Below, one piece after another: positions 369 to 9,870 of a stretch of 10,386 nucleotides of DNA. Numbering within the stretch: position 1 is the stretch's first letter; each line of letters begins with the position of its first letter. A model generated the notes under the pieces. It had not been told where the DNA came from. It was given only the letters and a program-made list of their open reading frames with translations, and did not search any database. The stretch lies in the IMG/VR virus record IMGVR_UViG_3300028965_000008, positions 1 through 10,386 of that record, one strand, 5' to 3'. A program made the translations under genes and the position numbers. This DNA is from a virus (lineage: Duplodnaviria; Heunggongvirae; Uroviricota; Caudoviricetes).

Positions 369-776
369 TTATTTGTTTGCGCTTCTTTTGCGAGCTTTGA
401 GTAGTTCTTCAAAAAGTTTGTTGAAATTTTCAACTCGAGCACGCATCTCTGACAACAGGGCCTTTTGCTCTGACTCAGGCAGTGCGTCGAACAGTTGAAG
501 TAACTCTTTTTGATCTTCTGTCAGAATGGCTGGTTGATTATCCGGGAGCGGTTCGCCTGGTTGTTTATCTTCATCCCCAAAAAGAAGCCAAGTCGGTGAG
601 CACTGAAGCGCTTGGCTCAGTGCGAATAATCTTTTCCCCGCCGGCTGTGTTTCATCTCTTTCCCATTGAGAAATTGTTACGTGAGCCACTTTGACCAGCT
701 TACCTAATGCGGCCTGAGACAGTTTTAATTTTTTACGCCTATGTAAGAGGCGAGCACCGAAGGTTTCGTTTTTCAT
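369..776 (-). CDS. dicA: HTH (XRE-family) prophage repressor, DicA-like (CI/C2 functional analogue), 135 aa
   Basis: ORF translation MKNETFGARLLHRRKKLKLSQAALGKLVKVAHVTISQWERDETQPAGKRLFALSQALQCSPTWLLFGDEDKQP...NFNKLFEELLKARKRS closely resembles E. coli DicA as recalled, with the HTH at the N-terminus; divergent from the Cro-like gene. Confidence 0.85.
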   Translation of the reverse strand: MKNETFGARLLHRRKKLKLSQAALGKLVKVAHVTISQWERDETQPAGKRLFALSQALQCSPTWLLFGDEDKQPGEPLPDNQPAILTEDQKELLQLFDALPESEQKALLSEMRARVENFNKLFEELLKARKRSANK

Positions 777-1080: not shown

Positions 1081-1615
1081 ACAGGTTTGTGAGGCTCTGG
1101 ATGCCTGGGTATGCCGACCAGGAATGACACAGGAGCAGGCGACGATATTAATCACGGAAGCATTCTGGGCTCTGAAAGAACGCCCGAACATTGATGTTCA
1201 ACGCGTCACGTTTGATGATGGCGCGGTTGATCAACGGGCACTGGGCGTTAACCGGGTGAAGATATTCGAACGCTGGAAAGCTATCGACACCAGGGATAAG
1301 CGTGAAAAATTCACGGCGCTGATTCCGGCAATTATGGAGGCTATCCGGATCAGCGATTTCAGGTTGTATTGTGAAATTACTGACGGAAAAAGCATTACGT
1401 ACATGATCGCCGGGTTAAACAAAGAATATGGCGATGTGGTGGAGTCCGGGCTGCTTTTTGCGGATCCAGCTGTTGTGGAGCGTGAGACTGACGAGCTTAT
1501 AGAAAAAGCTATTGCTTTCAAGCATGCGTATCGTCAGCAATACCAACATTACTTTGCAGATAAACAAATATCTGTCTGGGGTTCGTATGAGTATCGATGC
1601 ACTACGATGGGCTAA
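1064..1615 (+). CDS. YdaT-like protein (CII-position prophage regulator/toxin family), 183 aa
   Basis: ATG at 1064 overlaps the dicC stop. The segment DKREKFTALIPAIMEAI resembles the conserved core of Rac YdaT; position immediately after cro matches the cII slot. Confidence 0.55.
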   Translation: MKITPEQVCEALDAWVCRPGMTQEQATILITEAFWALKERPNIDVQRVTFDDGAVDQRALGVNRVKIFERWKAIDTRDKREKFTALIPAIMEAIRISDFRLYCEITDGKSITYMIAGLNKEYGDVVESGLLFADPAVVERETDELIEKAIAFKHAYRQQYQHYFADKQISVWGSYEYRCTTMG

Positions 1616-2627
1616 AAAGGTGAAAACCGGCAGTTCATCCAGCAAGTCAGTATTGACCTGGCTTGCTGATATGTGCGGTGCCGATTTGTGTGCATACCCG
1701 TCTGTATCTGCACTGGCAGAAGTAACGGAACTGAACAAAAAGACTGTGCAGGACAGCTTACGACACCTGATGGAGATTGGGTTAATTGTTGATACCGGTG
1801 AGAGAAAAGGCAGAACAAAGCAAATTGTGGTGTACCGACTTATCGGTGTAGAAGAAAGTGTTGCCGAGCCTGAATACACCCAAAAACGGGAGTCTTTAAA
1901 GGTGGGTAAAATTGGTGCTGTTAATAAAAACAGTACCGAAAATGGTTATGTTTCAGCACAAAACAGCCCCAAAAACGGAACTCTTAGCTGCATGGAAAAT
2001 AACCAAAGACACCCAAATTTTCCATCAAAGACACCCAAAAACGGATCACGGAACCCAAAGGAACCCAAAGATCTAACCCCCACACATAACGCACGCGAGA
2101 GTGCTCCGACCAGTGAGCAGGAAGTTTTGTCGTTACAGGCAGCACCCCCTGTATTCCTGGGTGGCCTGAGCGAACCCATCGGAAAATTTCCGATGACCGA
2201 TAGCTGGTATCCGTCACGGGATTTTCGACGACGGGCTGCGTTGTGGGGGATGGCTTTGCCGGAGACAGAATTTACACCTGCTGAACTTGCCGCCTTCCGG
2301 GACTACTGGGCAGCGGAGGGGAAAGTATTTACGCAGATTCAGTGGGAGCAGAAATTCGCCCGTCACGTAAATCACGTCAGGGCGCAGGTTAAACCAGTCA
2401 GCAAGGGGGTGAACCATGCAGCAGCACCAGGTGGCACCGCATCACGGGCAGTTCAGGAAATTCGGGCAGCACGTGAGCAGTGGGAACGTGAAAACGGATT
2501 TATCAGCGACGGAAACGGCCTGGAAGCTGTGGGAACTCATGGGGGAGGTTTATTCGAACCGCTGGACTCAGAAGAACGGGGCCGCACCTTCGAAGCTCTG
2601 GATTGCACAGATTGGCGCGATGACTGA
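1587..2627 (+). CDS. Replication initiator (O-like): N-terminal HTH replication domain plus DnaT-like C-terminal domain
   Basis: The first ATG of the ORF is at 1512, but the ATG at 1587 (MSIDALRWAKKV...) just overlaps the YdaT-like stop. The C-terminal segment GKFPMTDSWYPSRDFRRRAALWGMALPETEFTPAELAAFRDYWAAEGKVFTQIQWEQKFAR resembles the E. coli DnaT C-terminus ([26 protein letters not shown]...[20 protein letters not shown]). The 3' end is uncertain because of the overlap with the next gene. Confidence 0.7.
   Translation: MSIDALRWAKKVKTGSSSSKSVLTWLADMCGADLCAYPSVSALAEVTELNKKTVQDSLRHLMEIGLIVDTGERKGRTKQIVVYRLIGVEESVAEPEYTQKRESLKVGKIGAVNKNSTENGYVSAQNSPKNGTLSCMENNQRHPNFPSKTPKNGSRNPKEPKDLTPTHNARESAPTSEQEVLSLQAAPPVFLGGLSEPIGKFPMTDSWYPSRDFRRRAALWGMALPETEFTPAELAAFRDYWAAEGKVFTQIQWEQKFARHVNHVRAQVKPVSKGVNHAAAPGGTASRAVQEIRAAREQWERENGFISDGNGLEAVGTHGGGLFEPLDSEERGRTFEALDCTDWRDD
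1967..2070. repeat. Iteron-like direct repeats inside the initiator gene (candidate replication origin)
   Basis: Five copies of the core (A/C)CCCAAA at 1967, 2011, 2033, 2053 and 2063, including a perfect tandem GAACCCAAAG x2 (2051-2070) and the longer repeat CAAAGACACCCAAA at 2004-2017 and 2026-2039; spacings are about 10, 20 and 22 bp; an AT-richer stretch lies at 1911-1960. Confidence 0.5.
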
Positions 2628-3081
2628 GCAGCAAATCCGGCAGGTCTGCCGCCAGTGCATGGACCGTTGCAGGGCAGGTGAAACATGGCCTCCGGACCTG
2701 GCTGAGTTTGTGGCGCTGATTTCGGAGAGCGGGGCAAATCCATTTGGTCTGACGGTGGATAACGTGATGGAGGAGTACCGACGCTGGCGCAACGAGTCCT
2801 GGCGATACGACGGAAGCGATAAATACCCGTGGTCTCAGCCTGTGCTGTATCACATTTGTCTCGAGATGCGTTCAAAGGGGATTGAGCGCCAGATGACCGA
2901 AGGGGAATTAAAACGGCTTGCAGAACGGCAACTGACGAAATGGGCAAAGCATGTTGGTAACGGACTGAGTGTTCCACCCGTCCGTAGGCAACTGGCAGCA
3001 CCCATACGTCCTGCGGGACCAACGCCAATTGAGTTGCTGAAACAGGAATATGAACGCAGGAAAGCGGCAGGTTTTGTTTGA
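2416..3081 (+). CDS. Lambda P-like replication protein (helicase loader), about 221 aa
   Basis: Similarity to lambda P as recalled: AGETWPPDLAEFVALISES versus PFLPSPGQFVAWCREE, a conserved YPW, and ELKRLAERQL versus ELRRKAADEL. Strong SD AAGGGGG 5 nt before the ATG at 2416. Alternative starts are ATG 2539 and ATG 2620; the latter overlaps the upstream stop as ATGACTGA. Confidence 0.7.
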   Translation: MQQHQVAPHHGQFRKFGQHVSSGNVKTDLSATETAWKLWELMGEVYSNRWTQKNGAAPSKLWIAQIGAMTEQQIRQVCRQCMDRCRAGETWPPDLAEFVALISESGANPFGLTVDNVMEEYRRWRNESWRYDGSDKYPWSQPVLYHICLEMRSKGIERQMTEGELKRLAERQLTKWAKHVGNGLSVPPVRRQLAAPIRPAGPTPIELLKQEYERRKAAGFV

Positions 3082-3110: not shown

Positions 3111-3506
3111 ATGGCGAAACCTTTTACACCCGAACAGCGGGAAGAGCTGAAGGCACGAATTATCGGATTGGTACGCAAAAATGGACGCATGACGATGTCG
3201 CAACTGGAGAGAGCGACGGGAGCTGGCTGGCATTCGGTCCGACGCTGCCTTGTGGATGTACTGGCTTGTGGTGATTTATACATGTCCGGGGAATACGGTG
3301 TTTTTGCATCAGAGCAGGCGTATCGTGAATGGCGTAAGACACCGGAGAAAACAACTGACCAGACACTGATTCGAAAGTTACCAGACGGAGAAATACGCCG
3401 CTACGACAGACACCTGAACATAATCTGTCGCGAGTGCCGGAAGAGTGAGGTTATGCAGCGAGTGCTGGCGTTTTATCAGGGGAAATTTCAGGAGGTGATG
3501 CTGTGA
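3111..3506 (+). CDS. Hypothetical prophage protein, 131 aa, possible winged-helix N-terminus
   Basis: SD GGGAGGG 4 nt upstream of ATG 3111. The N-terminus LKARIIGLVRKNGRMTMSQLERATGAGWHSVRRCL looks like a wHTH, judged by eye; no family recognised. Confidence 0.55.
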   Translation: MAKPFTPEQREELKARIIGLVRKNGRMTMSQLERATGAGWHSVRRCLVDVLACGDLYMSGEYGVFASEQAYREWRKTPEKTTDQTLIRKLPDGEIRRYDRHLNIICRECRKSEVMQRVLAFYQGKFQEVML

Positions 3507-3745
3507 GCGAATCAAAATGTCAGGTTAATGGCAATCAGTTAGAACTATGTGCGGCACTGGCAAAAGCCCTTGAGCATGATGCTGAATACACGATGCGAAA
3601 AGGTCTGCTGATATACAAAATCTGGAATGAGAATTTAACTCGCGCCCCTGATTTGGTGATGTTGCGTTCCGGTGAATTTTCTAAATCACCTATTCGAGTC
3701 TCATTTTGCCCGTTCTGTGGTGAAAGTCTGAAAACATGGAAATAA
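3503..3745 (+). CDS. Hypothetical small protein, 80 aa, GTG start, Cys-containing C-terminus (CPFCG)
   Basis: GTG at 3503 overlaps the upstream stop (GTGA); strong SD AGGAGGTGA at 3490-3498. Confidence 0.5.
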   Translation: MSESKCQVNGNQLELCAALAKALEHDAEYTMRKGLLIYKIWNENLTRAPDLVMLRSGEFSKSPIRVSFCPFCGESLKTWK

Positions 3746-3756
3746 GGAGACAACCA

Positions 3757-4281
3757 GTGAGCAAGATTGACTATCAGGCACTGCGTGGGGCGGCAGAAGC
3801 AATAAAAATAGCAGCCACACCACAAAAATTGCTGGCATTTCGTATGAAAGCCACACCTCAGGTTGTGTTGGAACTGCTGGATGAACTGGAAATTAAAAGC
3901 AAACGAATTAACGAGTTAATCAAGGGTGGTGAAAACGCCAAATACGTGACTGAAATTTTCCGACTTGAGAAAGAACGCATGGCGCTGGCGGCGGAGAATG
4001 CGGGGCTGAATAAATTTATCGTACAGAGTTGCTACGTGTTTGATGGCGAGCAGGATGAACTATCTGATGCGTATATCTGCGCAACAGACGGAGGTATGCC
4101 GCAAACCCCGGCTACAGATGCTTTCCTGGCTGATGTACGGGCGGTGGCGTTTGACGAACTTCGCGCGGCGTTTGTCAGGCACGTAAAAGTTGCAGGACTG
4201 GATGAGGCCGATACCGTAACGCTTAAGGAAGTGACAGAAGCATTGTTGCATTGTGCGGAACAGATTCGCGCGCCTGAATAA
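3757..4281 (+). CDS. Ead/Ea22-like family prophage protein
   Basis: The ORF is open from ATG 3736, but a GTG at 3757 has SD AAGGAG 7 nt upstream and lies after the upstream stop at 3745. SKIDYQALRGAAEAIK... with a coiled-coil-like N-terminus resembles Ead/Ea22-like proteins; family assignment is from memory. Confidence 0.55.
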   Translation: MSKIDYQALRGAAEAIKIAATPQKLLAFRMKATPQVVLELLDELEIKSKRINELIKGGENAKYVTEIFRLEKERMALAAENAGLNKFIVQSCYVFDGEQDELSDAYICATDGGMPQTPATDAFLADVRAVAFDELRAAFVRHVKVAGLDEADTVTLKEVTEALLHCAEQIRAPE

Positions 4282-4375: not shown

Positions 4376-4594
4376 ATGGTCACATTATTCAGAAAAAAAT
4401 ATCCACGAAAGAGTAGAACAACAGAATTTCTGTTTCTCATTCTGTTTATCGTGTTGATGATACCGATATCCCCGCTAATTTTTGTCTGGGCAATCGGGAA
4501 AATAATTGAGCCAGTTATTGAATTGTATAACGACGTGGTGTGGGCGTCGTTCAACACACTGCACAATAAAATTAACCCGTATAAGGAAAGCTGA
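4376..4594 (+). CDS. Small predicted membrane protein, 72 aa
   Basis: Hydrophobic stretch FLFLILFIVLMIPISPLIFVWAIG; lies in an AT-rich segment; its stop at 4592-4594 sits directly before the HNH gene ATG at 4596 (translational coupling). A minus-strand ORF (4288..4602) overlaps it, so strand assignment is not certain. Confidence 0.45.
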   Translation: MVTLFRKKYPRKSRTTEFLFLILFIVLMIPISPLIFVWAIGKIIEPVIELYNDVVWASFNTLHNKINPYKES

Positions 4595-4595
4595 T

Positions 4596-4961
4596 ATGGC
4601 ACTGACGAAAAAGCAACGTGCAGAACTGCGCATGAAGTTCGGTGGTCGCTGTGCTTATTGCGGCTGCGAACTTGGCGAAAAGTGGCATGCAGACCATGTA
4701 AAACCGGTCATTCGTTTTGATGGAAATATGCTTCACCAGGAACGTGACGGTATATCCAACATGGTTCCGGCATGCCACCCATGCAATCTGCACAAGCATT
4801 GCAGTAGCCTGGAAGATTATCGGCGAATTATCAGTGATGGTCGTCGTGAATTCCTTGCGTCCGGGAAAGGCAAAGCGCTGGTTCGTATGGGATTGGTTGA
4901 AATGAAACCTGACCCGGTTGTGTTCTGGTTTGAAAAATATCAAGAAGGGGCTACAGCATGA
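4596..4961 (+). CDS. HNH endonuclease, 121 aa
   Basis: MALTKKQRAELRMKFGGRCAYCGCEL...HADHVKPV...NMVPACHPCNLHK carries the HNH signature (CxxC, H-N-H, CxxC); SD AAGGAAAG 5 nt before the ATG at 4596. Confidence 0.8.
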   Translation: MALTKKQRAELRMKFGGRCAYCGCELGEKWHADHVKPVIRFDGNMLHQERDGISNMVPACHPCNLHKHCSSLEDYRRIISDGRREFLASGKGKALVRMGLVEMKPDPVVFWFEKYQEGATA

Positions 4962-5521
4962 CCACTTTTACCAATAGCAAACTAACAGACGAATACGTTT
5001 CAAATGCAACGTTGATTCGGCTCATTCTGTGGGCTGACCAGCACAATAGTCATTATGTTGCAGCGGCTCTGCGCGAGCTACAGGAGCGCCGCAAGGCTGA
5101 TAGTGTGCCTGTAGAAATCAACGACGACATGGCTTACGCATTCCATCGCGCACTGTCAGATTCATCGCCAGGCGCTGATGAGGTAGAGGAAATTAAGACA
5201 GGGTTGCGTGCAGCCTTTGCCAATGTCACCACCCAACCAGCACCAGTAGTGCCGGAATTTGAAACATGGTTTAACAGCCAGGAGTCAGGGAGGAGTATAT
5301 GCAGCACACAGATTCGTCGTTACCTTCAGGAAATTTCATGGAACGCCTGCCGCGCCGCCATGCTTAAGGGAGATAAATCACGATTAATCGAACCAAACTG
5401 GAGCACATTCTCGAATATGCCAGGCAGCAGAAATGTATTGGGCAACTTTGTAAAATTCCACCAGGAGATATGGTTGAAATCGTGGAAATTGCCATGCGCA
5501 AGGCTGGCAACTCTCCGGTAA
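4958..5521 (+). CDS. Hypothetical prophage protein, 187 aa as read; the 3' end may be frameshifted into the DUF551 gene
   Basis: ATG at 4958 overlaps the HNH stop (ATGA), with SD GAAGGGG. The C-terminal tail WLKSWKLPCARLATLR looks non-native, while the alternative frame is open from 5377 and reads protein-like sequence. Confidence 0.5.
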   Translation: MTTFTNSKLTDEYVSNATLIRLILWADQHNSHYVAAALRELQERRKADSVPVEINDDMAYAFHRALSDSSPGADEVEEIKTGLRAAFANVTTQPAPVVPEFETWFNSQESGRSICSTQIRRYLQEISWNACRAAMLKGDKSRLIEPNWSTFSNMPGSRNVLGNFVKFHQEIWLKSWKLPCARLATLR

Positions 5522-5739
5522 CTCCGGATGGTTGGATAAGCTGTAGTGAGCGAATGCCGGATACCAAAACAGCCGTTCTTGTTGCCGTGGAGTTTGACAG
5601 GAAAGGTGACTGGCGAATGAAATGGGCGACTTACATCCCGGGGCATCCTGACGCTAATGATGGGTGGATAATTCCTGGTGCGTCGTGGAAACCGTCACAC
5701 TGGATGCCGCTACCGGAACCGCCACAGGAGGTGAGTTAA
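5470..5739 (+). CDS. DUF551 domain protein, 89 aa from ATG 5470
   Basis: The C-terminus ...DGWIIPGASWKPSHWMPLPEPP is typical of DUF551 prophage proteins as recalled. AGGAG lies only 2 nt before the ATG, and the frame is open upstream to 5377 with no canonical start, so the true N-terminus is uncertain. Confidence 0.6.
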   Translation: MVEIVEIAMRKAGNSPVTPDGWISCSERMPDTKTAVLVAVEFDRKGDWRMKWATYIPGHPDANDGWIIPGASWKPSHWMPLPEPPQEVS

Positions 5740-5983: not shown

Positions 5984-6094
5984 GCTAAAAATTTTTATCC
6001 GCATTAGACTAATCTAACCTTAGTACTACACTATTAATTACGCGCCAGGTTGGTGCGTTGGCCTTGCCAAAAGAACTTCAAGGGAAACGACAAG

Positions 6095-6274
6095 ATGAGC
6101 TACGCACTCAAGAAACACACACGGCTAAATATTCCGCCTCGCGACAAACGGGTTGTGGCAGCCCCTCGCCCGGCGATTGATGAAAACTGCACTCATCGTG
6201 AGCAGGTGAAAAATGCTTTCGATTTCGGTTTTTCTCGTTACGAGAAGGCAATGGAAGAACTTTCAAAAGTGTAA
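6095..6274 (+). CDS. Small protein, 59 aa; putative partner (antitoxin candidate) of the downstream Doc-family toxin
   Basis: ATG at 6095 (MSYALKKHTRL...) with SD-like AGGGAAA 9 nt upstream; ends 18 nt before the Doc ORF. No resemblance to Phd/YefM or YhfG noted by eye. Confidence 0.5.
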   Translation: MSYALKKHTRLNIPPRDKRVVAAPRPAIDENCTHREQVKNAFDFGFSRYEKAMEELSKV

Positions 6275-6292
6275 TGATGGGTATTGTGCTCT

Positions 6293-6772
6293 ATGGCTGA
6301 GATTGTTGAAGGAGTGCATTACCTTACGGTTGATGATCTTGTTGAAATCAATCGTTCCCTAATTGAATTACAGACGCCAGATGAGCCCGTTGGTGTTCTG
6401 AGTCCAGATAGCTTAAGTTCTTCTCAGGCCCGTCCCAGCATGGTTCGATGGTATGAACAGACTAATGACATGTTTGTACTGGTATCGGTATTGATTGAAA
6501 GTCTGATTCAGAATCATCCGTTTGCTAATGCGAACAAACGAACAGCTATGATGGCTGGTTACGTCTTCTTGTTGTTGAATGGCTATGAGTTAACAGCACC
6601 AGGCGATGAAATCGTGGAAATGGCAGAGGGACTGGCCTGCAAAACCTATACTCGAGAAGATCTCGAGAACTGGTTGTGTTATTGGTCTCGTGCGTATGAC
6701 AGCCGGGAATTATGTAAAACAGGCGCAACTATTGTTTTGTATGAAACTATCAAGCTTAAAATAGAACAGTAA
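6293..6772 (+). CDS. Doc (death-on-curing) / Fic-fold family toxin
   Basis: HPFANANKRTAMMAGYVFLLLNGYEL matches the Doc signature HxFx(D/N)(A/G)NKR and resembles P1 Doc (HIFNDANKRTAL...FLRRNG). Start is ATG 6293 or the in-frame TTG at 6284. Confidence 0.8.
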   Translation: MAEIVEGVHYLTVDDLVEINRSLIELQTPDEPVGVLSPDSLSSSQARPSMVRWYEQTNDMFVLVSVLIESLIQNHPFANANKRTAMMAGYVFLLLNGYELTAPGDEIVEMAEGLACKTYTREDLENWLCYWSRAYDSRELCKTGATIVLYETIKLKIEQ

Positions 6773-7615: not shown

Positions 7616-8665
7616 GTGCGGGTATTGCTTCGACCTGTTCCGGTACCGGAACTCGGGCTGGTGGTCTTTAAGCCTGGTCGTGAATCCATGCAGGTATTTC
7701 ATAACCCTCGAGTGCTGGTGGAGCCGGAACCGAAAAGCATGCGCGGTCTGCCGTCCGGAGTTGTTCCTGCCGTTCGCCAGCCGCTGGCAGAAGATAAATC
7801 ATTGCTGCCATTTTTCAGCGACGAACGGGTGATTCGTGCTGCCGGCGGCGCTGGTGCACTGTCTGACTGGCTCCTGCGTCATGTTAAATCCTGCCAGTGG
7901 TCTCATGGTGACTACCATCACAGTGAAACCGTCATACATCGTTACGGTACCGGCGCGATGGTGTTGTGCTGGCACTGCGACAACCAGCTGCGTGACCAGA
8001 CCTCAGAATCACTTGAGCAACTTGCTCAACAAAACCTGACAGCATGGATGATTGACGTCATCCGTCACGCAATAAGCGGTGCGCAGGAGCGTGAATTATC
8101 GCTGGCTGAATTATCCTGGTGGGCTGTCTGCAATCAGGTGGTGGACGCACTACCGGAGGTAGTATTACGTCGTTCTCTGGGGTTACGTGCGGAAAAAATT
8201 CGCTCGGTGTACCGCGAAAGCGACATCATACCGGGAGAGCAGACCGCCACCAGCATACTGAAGCAGCGCACAAAAAATCTTGCGCCGTTGCCTCACGCCC
8301 ACCAGCAACCGAACCCACCACAGGAAAAGACGGTGGTCAGTATCGCCGTTGATCCGGAGTCTCCTGAATCTTTCATGAAGCGACCTAAACGTCGCCGTTG
8401 GGTGAATGAGAAATACACGCGTTGGGTAAAGACACAGCCGTGTGCGTGTTGTGGTAAGCCAGCAGACGATCCCCATCACCTGATTGGTCATGGTCAGGGC
8501 GGGATGGGAACAAAATCCCACGATATTTTCACGCTACCGTTGTGTCGGGAGCATCACAACGAGCTTCATGCGGATCCGCTGGCGTTCGAAGAAAAGCATG
8601 GTTCCCAGATTGATTTAATTTTTCGTTTTCTTGATCACGCCTTTGCAACCGGCGTGCTCGGGTAA
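7616..8665 (+). CDS. DUF968 domain protein (YdfU-like), 349 aa, with a Cys/His-rich C-terminal module
   Basis: GTG start at 7616 with GGAGG 5 nt upstream. C-terminus CACCGKPADDPHHLIGHG...CREHHNELH; length and position (before rusA/Q) match Qin YdfU as recalled. Confidence 0.7.
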   Translation: MRVLLRPVPVPELGLVVFKPGRESMQVFHNPRVLVEPEPKSMRGLPSGVVPAVRQPLAEDKSLLPFFSDERVIRAAGGAGALSDWLLRHVKSCQWSHGDYHHSETVIHRYGTGAMVLCWHCDNQLRDQTSESLEQLAQQNLTAWMIDVIRHAISGAQERELSLAELSWWAVCNQVVDALPEVVLRRSLGLRAEKIRSVYRESDIIPGEQTATSILKQRTKNLAPLPHAHQQPNPPQEKTVVSIAVDPESPESFMKRPKRRRWVNEKYTRWVKTQPCACCGKPADDPHHLIGHGQGGMGTKSHDIFTLPLCREHHNELHADPLAFEEKHGSQIDLIFRFLDHAFATGVLG

Positions 8666-8677
8666 AAGAGGTTACTG

Positions 8678-9052
8678 ATGCGTATAGAGTTTGTTTTGCC
8701 TTACCCGCCAACGGTGAACACCTACTGGCGACGTCGTGGCAGCACATATTTTGTATCAAAAACCGGTGAGCGTTATCGCCGGGATGTGGCACTTATTGTT
8801 CGCCAGCAGCAACTGAAATTAAACCTGTCCGGAAGGCTGGCGATAAAGATTATTGCAGAGCCACCGGATAAGCGCCGTCGTGACCTGGACAATATTCTGA
8901 AAGCACCACTGGATGCGCTGACGCATGCGGGACTGCTTATCGACGACGAGCAGTTTGATGAAATCAATATTGTGCGCGGTCAGGTCGTTCCCGGTGGGCG
9001 GTTGGGCGTGAAAATTTACGAAATAATGCATGACGGGCAGGTCAAAAAATGA
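8678..9052 (+). CDS. rusA: RusA Holliday-junction resolvase
   Basis: LPYPPTVNTYWRRRG...DKRRRDLDNILKAPLDALTHAGLLIDDEQ resembles E. coli RusA (LPWPPSNNRYYRH...[27 protein letters not shown]); SD AAGAGG. Confidence 0.85.
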   Translation: MRIEFVLPYPPTVNTYWRRRGSTYFVSKTGERYRRDVALIVRQQQLKLNLSGRLAIKIIAEPPDKRRRDLDNILKAPLDALTHAGLLIDDEQFDEINIVRGQVVPGGRLGVKIYEIMHDGQVKK

Positions 9053-9870
9053 AGCTGGAAGATTTACCGAAATACTATTCCCCGAAATCGCCTGGCCTGA
9101 CCGATGCGTCCGCCTCGACATCAAAAGATGCGCTGAGCATCACTGATGTGATGGCTGCGCAGGGTATGACACAAAACCGGGCTGAGATGGGGTTTTCTGC
9201 GTTCCTGGGGAAAATGGGCATTAGTATGAATGACAGGGCGCGGGCAACAGAATTACTGGCAGATTATGCATTAAGTCAGTGCGATCGCGTGGCGGCGTTA
9301 AGAAAGCTTCCGGCAGAAATAAAACCGGCAGTGATGCACATTATGGCCTCGTATGCCTTTGAGGATTATGCCCGCAGCGCAGCGAGTAAAAAGCGATGCC
9401 CTTGTTGCCGAGGGGAAAAATTTATTGAAAGCGAGGTTTTTACAAACAAGGTCCAGTATCCGGATGGTAAGCCGCCAGTATGGGCAAAGTGTACAAAAGG
9501 CGTGTATCCGTCTTACTGGGAAGAATGGAAAAAAATCCGGGAGGTGGTGAAAGTTTCCTGTCCTGAATGTAAAGGGAAGGGGGAGATTTCGACTGCCTGT
9601 AAAGATTGCCGTGGGCGTGGTGTTGCCATTCATCGTGAAGAATCAGAAAAACGGGGTATGCCTGTTATCAGGGACTGCCGGCGTTGTGGCGGTCGTGGCT
9701 ATGAAAGATTACCGTCAACGGAGGCATTTAATGCCATATGTGGGGTGACAAATCAGATAACACGCGCGTCATGGGAAAAAACGGTTAAGCAATTCTATGA
9801 CACGCTGGTGGTTCGGTTTGACATTGAAGAGGCATGGGCGGAGCGACAGTTAAAAAAGGTAACCAGATAA
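9049..9870 (+). CDS. Q-like late-gene antitermination protein, 273 aa, with CxxCxGxG zinc-finger repeats
   Basis: ATG overlaps the rusA stop (ATGA). Position immediately upstream of a late-promoter/terminator pair. Cys-rich repeats CPCCRGEK, CPECKGKG, CKDCRGRG, CRRCGGRG. Confidence 0.7.
   Translation: MKLEDLPKYYSPKSPGLTDASASTSKDALSITDVMAAQGMTQNRAEMGFSAFLGKMGISMNDRARATELLADYALSQCDRVAALRKLPAEIKPAVMHIMASYAFEDYARSAASKKRCPCCRGEKFIESEVFTNKVQYPDGKPPVWAKCTKGVYPSYWEEWKKIREVVKVSCPECKGKGEISTACKDCRGRGVAIHREESEKRGMPVIRDCRRCGGRGYERLPSTEAFNAICGVTNQITRASWEKTVKQFYDTLVVRFDIEEAWAERQLKKVTR

What the first reader, a model, noticed from the sequence alone, without database searches (positions are those of the whole stretch)
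3111..3745. Coupled pair of hypothetical genes: a wHTH-like protein and a Cys-containing 80-aa protein
The 131-aa protein has a winged-helix-like N-terminus and a C-terminal CRECRK motif. The overlapping 80-aa gene (GTG start, strong SD) ends in CPFCGESLK, with further Cys residues near its N-terminus, and may be a zinc ribbon. Their tight coupling in the nin-like region and lack of an obvious family make them candidates for a small regulatory or anti-host module.
Basis: inference. Interest (0 to 1): 0.28.

Follow-up and report, generated by a model that had tools for sequence, protein, structure and literature searches.

The report
Ren-like gene plus small four-cysteine gene
These are two real but separate accessory genes of a lambda-like prophage: a relative of lambda's Ren protein (family DUF977) and a small uncharacterised phage protein with four invariant cysteines, which are often neighbours but do not form a dedicated pair.

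Summary
Both ORFs exist as described: 3111-3506 (131 aa) and 3503-3745 (80 aa, GTG start, AGGAGGTGAT Shine-Dalgarno, GTGA overlap). The claim of "no obvious family" is wrong for the first gene. It is a full-length DUF977 protein (Pfam E 3.6e-63) and matches PHROG_142, "Ren-like exclusion protein". It aligns with lambda Ren (hhalign 96%) and sits in the ren slot just after the P-like replication gene. Its N-terminus is a confident winged helix. CRECRK is not a zinc site. The family is present in 77% of complete E. coli genomes.

The 80-aa protein is a real gene (median dN/dS 0.19). It matches PHROG_4030 (function unknown) and no Pfam family. A full-library search shows a wider family of 80-100-aa proteins, found in phage or prophage contexts wherever I looked, with C6, C16, C69, P70 and C72 invariant. 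This supports a metal site, though not a classical zinc ribbon.

The pairing is frequent from the small gene's side (42 of 80 viral loci) but optional. At most about 4-5% of DUF977 genes can have it downstream, and it also follows other genes, usually with the same short overlap. No defence or toxin-antitoxin signature was found. Verdict: an ordinary lambdoid mosaic. The only mildly novel item is the uncharacterised four-cysteine family.

The parts
3111..3506 (+). Ren-like / DUF977 gene (131 aa), in the ren slot directly after the P-like helicase-loader gene
   Evidence: Pfam PF06163 DUF977, E 3.6e-63, 212 bits against a cutoff of 22.1, full length. PHROG_142 'Ren-like exclusion protein', E 2.5e-44. 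hhalign of the family profile against lambda Ren gives probability 96.3%, E 1.9e-9, covering Ren residues 5-93. The exact protein is on 98 public contigs named 'DUF977 family protein [E. coli]'.
3141..3320 (+). Winged helix-turn-helix domain (about residues 11-70) of the Ren-like protein; its sequence varies strongly between alleles
3378..3479 (+).
   Evidence: It is nearly invariant across 31 DUF977 alleles. It is the only part conserved at DNA level across E. coli alleles (query nt 267-392). BLASTP to the lambda Ren C-terminus gives 55% identity over 20 aa. AF2 confidence here is only 58-69.
3490..3499 (+). Shine-Dalgarno sequence AGGAGGTGAT for the 80-aa gene, embedded in the last codons of the Ren-like gene
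   Evidence: Read directly from the sequence. Equivalent GGAGG or AGGAG runs precede the start in most of the other genomic contexts.
3503..3745 (+). Small four-cysteine protein gene (80 aa here, 82-88 aa in most relatives); PHROG_4030, function unknown
   Evidence: PHROG_4030, E 5.3e-38. No Pfam, NCBIfam or PADLOC family. Median dN/dS 0.19 and a conserved GTG start. The wider family has 243 clusters at E<=1e-3. Cys codons lie at 3518-3520, 3548-3550, 3707-3709 and 3716-3718; these four Cys and P70 are the only invariant columns among 61 diverse members.
3743..3743 (+). Single extra T relative to the closest relatives; it creates the TAA stop that removes the 8-residue acidic tail and opens ATG 3736 for the next ORF
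   Evidence: Alignment A4 with STEC719 (L001) and IMG/VR locus L006. The closest homologues are 88 aa and end in WKKETTSEQD.
3757..4281 (+). Ead/Ea22-like gene, the next module; its probable true start is GTG 3757 with AAGGAG at 3744-3749, not the ATG at 3736
   Evidence: Pfam Ead_Ea22, E 9.3e-10. RefSeq annotation of the 97%-identical STEC719 locus starts at the equivalent GTG. Alignment A4.

Best explanation
The locus holds two independent accessory genes of the rightward early (pR-type) operon of a lambdoid prophage. They lie between the replication genes (DnaT/O-like, P-like) and the nin/Q region.

Gene 1 is a member of the DUF977 family, a longer relative of lambda Ren. It has an allele-variable winged-helix domain and a highly conserved C-terminal segment that it shares with Ren. 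By homology and position I infer that it does what Ren does: it protects the phage's own lytic development from Rex-type abortive-infection exclusion by resident lambdoid prophages. This probably works through protein contacts of the conserved C-terminus with exclusion or replication proteins, with the variable winged helix providing phage-specific recognition.

Gene 2 encodes a small protein of an uncharacterised family. In every context examined it lies in a phage or prophage. Four invariant cysteines (C-x9-C ... C-P-F-C-G) most likely bind one zinc ion that ties the N-terminal hairpin and helix to the C-terminal beta-hairpin. I infer that it acts alone as a small zinc-stabilised binder of a host or replication-associated target.

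The 4-nt overlap is ordinary translational coupling of tightly packed phage genes. The frequent adjacency reflects a shared mosaic slot, not an obligate partnership.

Shown: gene reality, family membership, the winged-helix fold, cysteine invariance and the distribution. Inferred: Rex-countering activity, zinc binding and the target.
For: Identity of gene 1: DUF977 E 3.6e-63; PHROG_142 Ren-like E 2.5e-44; hhalign to lambda Ren 96.3%. It occupies the same slot as lambda ren, directly after P. The winged helix is confirmed. Ren is non-essential and is reported to interact with Rex proteins in a two-hybrid assay (bioRxiv 10.1101/2021.04.19.439022; PMC10695390).

Identity of gene 2: PHROG_4030; purifying selection; 243 clusters with invariant C6, C16, C69, P70 and C72; weak resemblance of the CPFCG knuckle to the zinc ribbon of archaeal RpoM/TFS.

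Independence of the two genes. DUF977 is in 4152 of 5426 E. coli genomes at 7642 places. The small gene is in 403 genomes at 469 places, 129 of them on plasmids, apparently P1/P7-like from the records inspected. In 80 IMG/VR loci, DUF977 is directly upstream in 42, separated by other genes in 11, absent from the upstream sequence held in 24, and not assessable in 3. Other upstream partners are Ead/Ea22, DUF4752, a methyltransferase and phrog_874 (P7 upf86.8). In distant phages they are a DnaB helicase or a pyrophosphatase-like protein.

There are no promoter-like sites and no plus-strand terminator-like site between 2400 and 4700. There are no PADLOC hits.
Against: No experiment links any DUF977 protein to Rex exclusion. 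Similarity to lambda Ren is remote: BLASTP sees only 20 residues, and Ren itself does not score on the DUF977 Pfam model. Ren's own mechanism is unresolved.

Among chromosomal E. coli copies of the small gene, 19 of the 23 sampled lie directly after a DUF977 gene, including a different DUF977 allele and replication module in strain H19. Some functional link therefore cannot be excluded.

The AF2 model of the small protein was poor (pLDDT 51), so the geometry of the Cys4 site is not shown.
Confidence: 0.6

Rival explanations
1. The two proteins form a dedicated two-component module (regulator plus zinc-finger partner). They would be made in fixed ratio through translational coupling and act together against the host or a competitor.
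For: They overlap by 4 nt with a strong SD. The adjacency recurs in 42 of 80 IMG/VR loci and in 19 of 23 sampled chromosomal E. coli copies. It also occurs with a divergent 140-aa DUF977 allele next to a different replication module.
Against: At most about 4-5% of DUF977 genes in E. coli can have the small gene downstream (340 chromosomal places against 7608). Other genes such as DUF4406 or DUF1627 follow DUF977 in other records. The small gene occurs without DUF977 in P7-like plasmid prophages, in mEp460, in a Xenorhabdus prophage and in metagenomic phages, and usually overlaps whichever gene precedes it. Neither protein hits PADLOC. The conserved 3' end of DUF977 is itself a recombination-prone homology block, which explains the linkage without any shared function.
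Confidence: 0.12
2. The DUF977 protein is a sequence-specific DNA-binding regulator or replication accessory factor of the phage. It would act at the origin or on early transcription and have nothing to do with exclusion.
For: It has a confident winged helix of the ArsR/MarR/GntR/Z-alpha type, with allele-variable residues in the predicted recognition region. The gene always follows the replication genes. The authors of the RexA/RexB preprint describe ren as 'likely involved in DNA replication' and list Ren with the replication proteins.
Against: No operator-like repeats were looked for or found here. The most conserved part of the protein is the non-winged-helix C-terminus. Lambda ren is dispensable for replication and plaque formation (PMC3640518; PMC10695390).
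Confidence: 0.25
3. The small Cys4 protein is a replication-associated zinc finger, for example a helicase, primase or loader accessory, rather than a host-directed binder.
For: In several unrelated contexts it lies immediately downstream of replication genes: after P and Ren here, directly after a DnaB helicase in L089/L090, and in the early operon in the other loci.
Against: It also lies in early-left/ea-type regions (mEp460, a Xenorhabdus prophage near the integrase) and after Ead/Ea22, DUF4752, methyltransferase or pyrophosphatase-like genes. It is present in only about 7% of E. coli genomes, so it is not needed by most lambdoid replication modules.
Confidence: 0.15
4. The 80-aa ORF is a chance ORF, not a gene.
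For: It is short, has a GTG start and matches no Pfam family.
Against: Median dN/dS is 0.19. The start and SD are conserved. There are 243 homologous clusters with invariant Cys positions. It matches PHROG_4030 at E 5e-38.
Confidence: 0.01

Closest known systems
Bacteriophage lambda Ren (gene ren, lambdap62), grouped with this protein in PHROG_142 'Ren-like exclusion protein'
   Same: It occupies the same slot directly after the P-type helicase-loader gene in the pR operon. It has the same two-part layout: an N-terminal winged helix followed by a conserved C-terminal segment, N-x-x-x-x-E-C-R-x-S-x-x-M-x-R-V-L-A-x-Y. The profile alignment covers Ren residues 5-93 at 96.3% probability.
   Different: It is 131 aa against 96 aa, with an extra segment of about 21 residues (SEQAYREW...LPDGEIRRYDR) between the winged helix and the C-terminal core. 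Pairwise identity is detectable only over 20 residues. Lambda Ren does not score on Pfam DUF977. No exclusion phenotype has been tested for any DUF977 protein.
Pfam DUF977 (PF06163), lambdoid prophage proteins of Enterobacteriaceae
   Same: It is a full-length match at 212 bits. The exact protein is already deposited many times under that name.
   Different: Nothing differs; it is a typical member. The family has no assigned function beyond a predicted winged helix (PMC2686095).
PHROG_4030 (unknown function), which includes phage P7 Upf87.4
   Same: The 80-aa protein matches over profile positions 2-81 of 85 at E 5.3e-38. P7 upf87.4 is about 81% identical at DNA level.
   Different: The window copy lacks the last 4-8 variable acidic residues because of a 1-nt insertion.
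Zinc ribbons (for example the archaeal RpoM/TFS N-terminal ribbon; Pfam Zn_Ribbon_1 and Zn_ribbon_11)
   Same: It has a C-P-x-C-G knuckle between two predicted beta strands, and four conserved cysteines in all.
   Different: Only one CxxC knuckle is present. The other two ligands are spaced C-x9-C and sit about 50 residues upstream, in a hairpin and at the start of a helix. No zinc-ribbon model reaches its threshold.

Membership tests
Pfam DUF977 (PF06163) | Score above the curated gathering threshold over the full model | tested here: met
   212 bits against a cutoff of 22.1; residues 1-127 match model positions 1-134 of 134.
Lambda Ren family (PHROG_142) | Detectable sequence homology to lambda Ren | tested here: met
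   PHROG_142 E 2.5e-44. hhalign probability 96.3%, E 1.9e-9, over Ren residues 5-93. BLASTP alone detects only the C-terminal 20 residues.
Lambda Ren family (PHROG_142) | Gene lies directly downstream of the replication helicase-loader gene in the rightward early operon | tested here: met
   The P-like gene ends at 3081 and the Ren-like gene starts at 3111. The order is the same in STEC719 and in lambda.
Lambda Ren family (PHROG_142) | Confers resistance of the phage to Rex (RexA/RexB) exclusion | not testable with these tools
   This needs plating of a deletion mutant on Rex+ lysogens.
Winged helix-turn-helix DNA-binding domains | A three-helix bundle plus a beta-hairpin wing that superposes on solved winged helices | tested here: met
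Winged helix-turn-helix DNA-binding domains | Actual nucleic-acid binding | not testable with these tools
   Many winged helices mediate protein contacts instead; no target site was sought.
PHROG_4030 | Significant full-length profile match | tested here: met
   E 5.3e-38; residues 2-80 match profile positions 2-81 of 85.
Classical zinc ribbon | Two CxxC (or CxxH) knuckles, each in a beta-hairpin | tested here: not met
   There is one CxxC (C69-P-F-C72). The other invariant cysteines are C6 and C16, spaced x9 to x10.
Classical zinc ribbon | Match to a zinc-ribbon family model above threshold | tested here: not met
   Only sub-threshold hits were found: DUF6980 at 14.8 bits against 27, and Zn_Ribbon_1 or Zn_ribbon_11 in 1 of 61 members each.
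Cys4 metal-binding small protein (generic) | Four ligand residues invariant across divergent homologues | tested here: met
   C6, C16, C69 and C72, together with P70, are the only invariant columns among 61 sequences of 24-43% identity.
Cys4 metal-binding small protein (generic) | The four cysteines converge in 3D and bind zinc | tested here: inconclusive
   The AF2 model built from the shallow alignment had pLDDT 51. Metal content needs an experiment.
Known anti-phage defence or toxin-antitoxin modules | Match to a PADLOC model, or obligate co-occurrence of the two genes | tested here: not met
   No PADLOC hits at E<=1. The two genes are distributed independently.

The most novel reading that the evidence does not exclude
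The 80-aa protein may represent a previously undescribed zinc-binding fold (C-x9-C ... CPFCG) of small early phage proteins. The family has at least 243 clusters at 50% identity, no Pfam family and no solved structure. It could work as an inhibitor of a host defence or a host replication factor, possibly in functional cooperation with Ren-like proteins in E. coli lambdoid prophages.
Probability: 0.15. Interest if true: 0.45.

Novelty: new member of a known kind. Interest (0 to 1): 0.17.

Why it matters
The result matters mainly for annotation. The "hypothetical" 131-aa gene can be labelled a Ren-like / DUF977 protein, which links a family present in 77% of complete E. coli genomes (7642 copies) to the only genetically characterised relative, lambda Ren. 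If DUF977 proteins do counter Rex-type exclusion, they would be among the most widespread counter-exclusion genes in E. coli prophages. That claim is testable but not shown here. The small Cys4 family is a reasonable, low-cost candidate for screens of phage accessory or anti-defence proteins and for structure determination.

Tried and rejected
1. AF2 of the 80-aa protein with the shallow Enterobacteriaceae alignment A2 gave pLDDT 51, which is unusable.

2. The afdb50 fold library was not available.

3. I recalled that E. coli K-12 YdaW (Rac prophage) was a DUF977 protein. That would have transferred the report that ydaW blocks the retron-Sen2 toxin (bioRxiv 10.1101/2020.06.22.160242). The recall was wrong: YdaW is a winged helix plus DUF1627 and shows no similarity to the window protein. 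The lead was dropped.

4. NCBIfam and PADLOC gave no hits for either protein or for the downstream gene.

5. Sequence searches of the PDB gave only generic winged-helix (Z-alpha) hits for DUF977. For the small protein they gave a motif-level hit to the RpoM zinc ribbon, which weakened to E 0.22 with the deeper profile.

6. The idea that CRECRK is a zinc site was rejected. There are only two Cys and no other conserved ligands, and the first Cys is Lys in lambda Ren.

7. My first impression, that the pair is almost never together (6 genomes with >=80% coverage), was an artefact of megablast on divergent DUF977 alleles. It was corrected.

8. Thomason & Court 2022 (PMC9529316), the main recent paper on ren, is not held in the library.

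9. No heterodimer prediction was possible with the tools.

Full report
**What is there**

The window is the early-right arm of a lambdoid prophage of E. coli type. The gene order is:

| Coordinates | Gene |
|---|---|
| 369-776 (minus strand) | CI-like repressor |
| 853-1080 | P22-Cro-like protein |
| 1064-1615 | YdaT-like protein |
| 1512-2627 | DnaT/O-like initiator |
| ending at 3081 | P-like helicase loader |
| 3111-3506, 3503-3745 | the two genes of the finding |
| to 4281 | Ead/Ea22-like gene |
| 4506-4961 | HNH endonuclease |
| 5470-5739 | DUF551 |
| 6284-6772 | Fic/DOC protein |
| 7616-8665 | DUF968 |
| 8678-9052 | RusA |
| 9049-9870 | Q antiterminator |

A 97%-identical locus in E. coli STEC719 is annotated the same way.

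Both ORFs of the finding are exactly as described. The 131-aa gene runs 3111-3506. The 80-aa gene runs 3503-3745 and starts at a GTG that overlaps the upstream TGA (GTGA). A perfect AGGAGGTGAT lies 7 nt upstream. There are no promoter-like sites and no plus-strand terminator-like site between 2400 and 4700. All of these genes therefore appear to belong to one rightward early operon.

**The 131-aa protein**

- It is a full-length member of Pfam DUF977 (E 3.6e-63, 212 bits against a threshold of 22.1).
- It matches PHROG_142, named "Ren-like exclusion protein" (E 2.5e-44).
- The exact sequence is already deposited on 98 contigs as "DUF977 family protein".
- Lambda's ren gene occupies the same position, directly after P.

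Pairwise BLASTP to lambda Ren finds only the last 20 residues: NIICRECRKSEVMQRVLAFY against NLVFKECRQSAAMKRVLAVY. Ren itself does not score on the DUF977 model. However, a profile of 31 DUF977 alleles aligns with Ren residues 5-93 at 96.3% probability. The protein is therefore a longer relative of Ren.

The alignment shows an unusual pattern. The winged helix, especially its third helix, differs strongly between alleles. The C-terminal segment LPDGEIRRYDR..NIICRECRKSEVMQRVLAFY is almost invariant and is the only part conserved at DNA level across E. coli.

The CRECRK motif is part of this conserved segment, but it is not a plausible zinc site. No other conserved ligands exist, and lambda Ren has Lys in place of the first Cys.

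**The 80-aa protein**

It is a real gene.

- Median pairwise dN/dS among 37 distinct alleles is 0.19.
- The GTG start is kept in 75 of 79 loci.
- An SD-like run precedes the start in most genomic contexts.

It matches PHROG_4030 (unknown function, E 5.3e-38). It matches no Pfam, NCBIfam or PADLOC model.

A word-indexed search found only 65 close clusters, all from Enterobacteriaceae. A full HMMER scan of 1.84 billion representatives found 243 clusters at E<=1e-3. Almost all of those listed are 70-130 aa and align nearly end to end. In an alignment of 61 of them (24-43% identity to the window protein), the only invariant columns are C6, C16, C69, P70 and C72. L19, G34, G57, F71 and G73 are nearly invariant.

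It is not a classical zinc ribbon, because there is one CPFCG knuckle plus a C-x9-C pair about 50 residues upstream. No zinc-ribbon model reaches threshold. The similarity to the RpoM/TFS ribbon is at motif level only.

The AF2 model built from the shallow alignment was unusable (pLDDT 51).

**Are the two genes a module?**

I tested this three ways.

1. *Complete E. coli genomes.* DUF977 DNA is found in 4152 of 5426 genomes at 7642 places. The small gene is found in 403 genomes at 469 places: 340 chromosomal and 129 on plasmids, apparently P1/P7-like from the records inspected. In an evenly spaced sample of the ranking, 19 of 23 full-length chromosomal copies have a DUF977 gene as the overlapping upstream neighbour. 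Others have DUF4752 or a methyltransferase. Plasmid copies have an ASCH-domain or hypothetical gene upstream.

2. *80 IMG/VR loci, analysed with profile HMMs.* DUF977 is directly upstream in 42. It is upstream but separated by other genes in 11. It is absent from the upstream sequence held in 24, and 3 loci are not assessable. The upstream ORF, whatever it is, usually ends 4 or 8 nt past the small gene's start.

3. *Distant members of the small-protein family.* They lie after a DnaB helicase, after a pyrophosphatase-like protein, or near the integrase of a Xenorhabdus prophage. None has a recorded DUF977 hit within the 4 kb on either side. In mEp460 and P7 the close homologues also lack DUF977.

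The adjacency is therefore common from the small gene's side in E. coli chromosomes. It also occurs with a divergent 140-aa DUF977 allele next to a different replication module (strain H19). But at most about 4-5% of DUF977 genes can have the small gene downstream, and the small gene is not tied to DUF977.

The conserved 3' end of DUF977 and short recurring junction sequences (AAGGAGnCAACCAGTGAG) are the kind of homology at which lambdoid modules are exchanged. That feature is established knowledge of lambdoid mosaicism and was not tested here. It would explain the linkage without any joint function. A residual functional link cannot be excluded; I give it about 0.12.

**A detail at the 3' end**

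Relative to its closest relatives, the window has one extra T at 3743 (alignment A4). This has three effects:

- It produces the TAA stop right after K80.
- It removes the variable acidic tail (KETTSEQD in the 88-aa form).
- It puts ATG 3736 in frame with the Ead/Ea22-like gene.

The real start of that gene is probably GTG 3757, as annotated in STEC719. The conserved core through W79 is intact, and the exact 80-aa form is seen on 9 other contigs. It is a natural variant and probably functional.

**Most likely mechanism**

For the DUF977 protein I adopt the Ren model. It would be an early, non-essential protein that lets the phage escape Rex-type exclusion. The ren phenotype comes from Toothman and Herskowitz 1980, cited from my own knowledge. 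Non-essentiality is supported in PMC10695390. Two-hybrid contacts of Ren with Rex proteins are reported in bioRxiv 10.1101/2021.04.19.439022. The conserved C-terminus would be the effector surface and the variable winged helix a specificity element. This is inference from homology and position only.

For the small protein I propose a zinc-stapled mini-domain that acts as a stand-alone binder of a host or replication-associated target. This is weakly supported by its small size, its Cys4 invariance, its location in early operons where I looked, and its variable neighbours.

The main rivals are a DNA-binding or replication role for DUF977 (0.25), a replication-accessory role for the small protein (0.15), and the dedicated-pair model (0.12).

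**Novelty and score**

The first gene is an already catalogued, very common family. The second is catalogued in PHROGs but has no Pfam family, no structure and no function. Nothing here would surprise a phage specialist. The modestly interesting residue is the invariant Cys4 signature of a wider small-protein family, and the testable idea that DUF977 proteins are Ren-type counter-exclusion factors. Interest is 0.17.

Noticed in passing
window 3743 (and 3736-3759): A single extra T relative to the closest relatives creates the stop of the 80-aa gene, so it is 80 aa instead of 88. The same T puts ATG 3736 in frame with the Ead/Ea22-like gene, whose likely true start is GTG 3757. The exact 80-aa form occurs on 9 other public contigs.
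   Followed up: yes
window 6284-6772 (+): A Fic/DOC-family protein (Pfam Fic, E 5.4e-11) with an HPFANANKR motif lies in the nin-like region. The 74-aa ORF just upstream (6050-6274) matches no family and could be its antitoxin or partner.
   Followed up: partly
window 3744-3762; the same motif in loci L006-L085 at the start of the small gene: A short sequence, AAGGAGnCAACCAGTGAG (SD plus GTG start), recurs at different gene boundaries. It looks like the conserved boundary or linker sequences at which lambdoid modules recombine.
   Followed up: partly
window 3378-3506, compared with E. coli genomes: Only the 3' third of the DUF977 gene (query nt 267-392) is conserved at 85-90% DNA identity across thousands of E. 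coli prophages, while the 5' two-thirds is allele-specific. This may reflect a specificity domain, or a recombination hotspot inside the gene.
   Followed up: partly
L086 (E. coli K-12 Rac prophage, ydaW, locus 4753-5313): K-12 YdaW sits in the equivalent slot after the replication gene ydaV, but it is a winged helix plus DUF1627 protein, not DUF977. DUF1627 also occurs next to or fused with DUF977 in other prophages (H35; P0099). The post-replication slot therefore seems to hold alternative winged-helix proteins.
   Followed up: partly
window 1512-2627 and 2416-3081: The longest ORFs of the DnaT/O-like and P-like genes overlap by 212 nt. In the annotated relative STEC719 the P gene starts much later and overlaps by only 8 nt, so the true P start in the window is probably near 2620. 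PHROG_15931 matches both proteins as if they were fused in some phages.
   Followed up: no
window 9049-9870 (+): The Q antiterminator carries a DnaJ-type CXXCXGXG zinc-finger segment (Pfam DnaJ_CXXCXGXG, E 9.7e-8) in front of the Antiterm domain.
   Followed up: no
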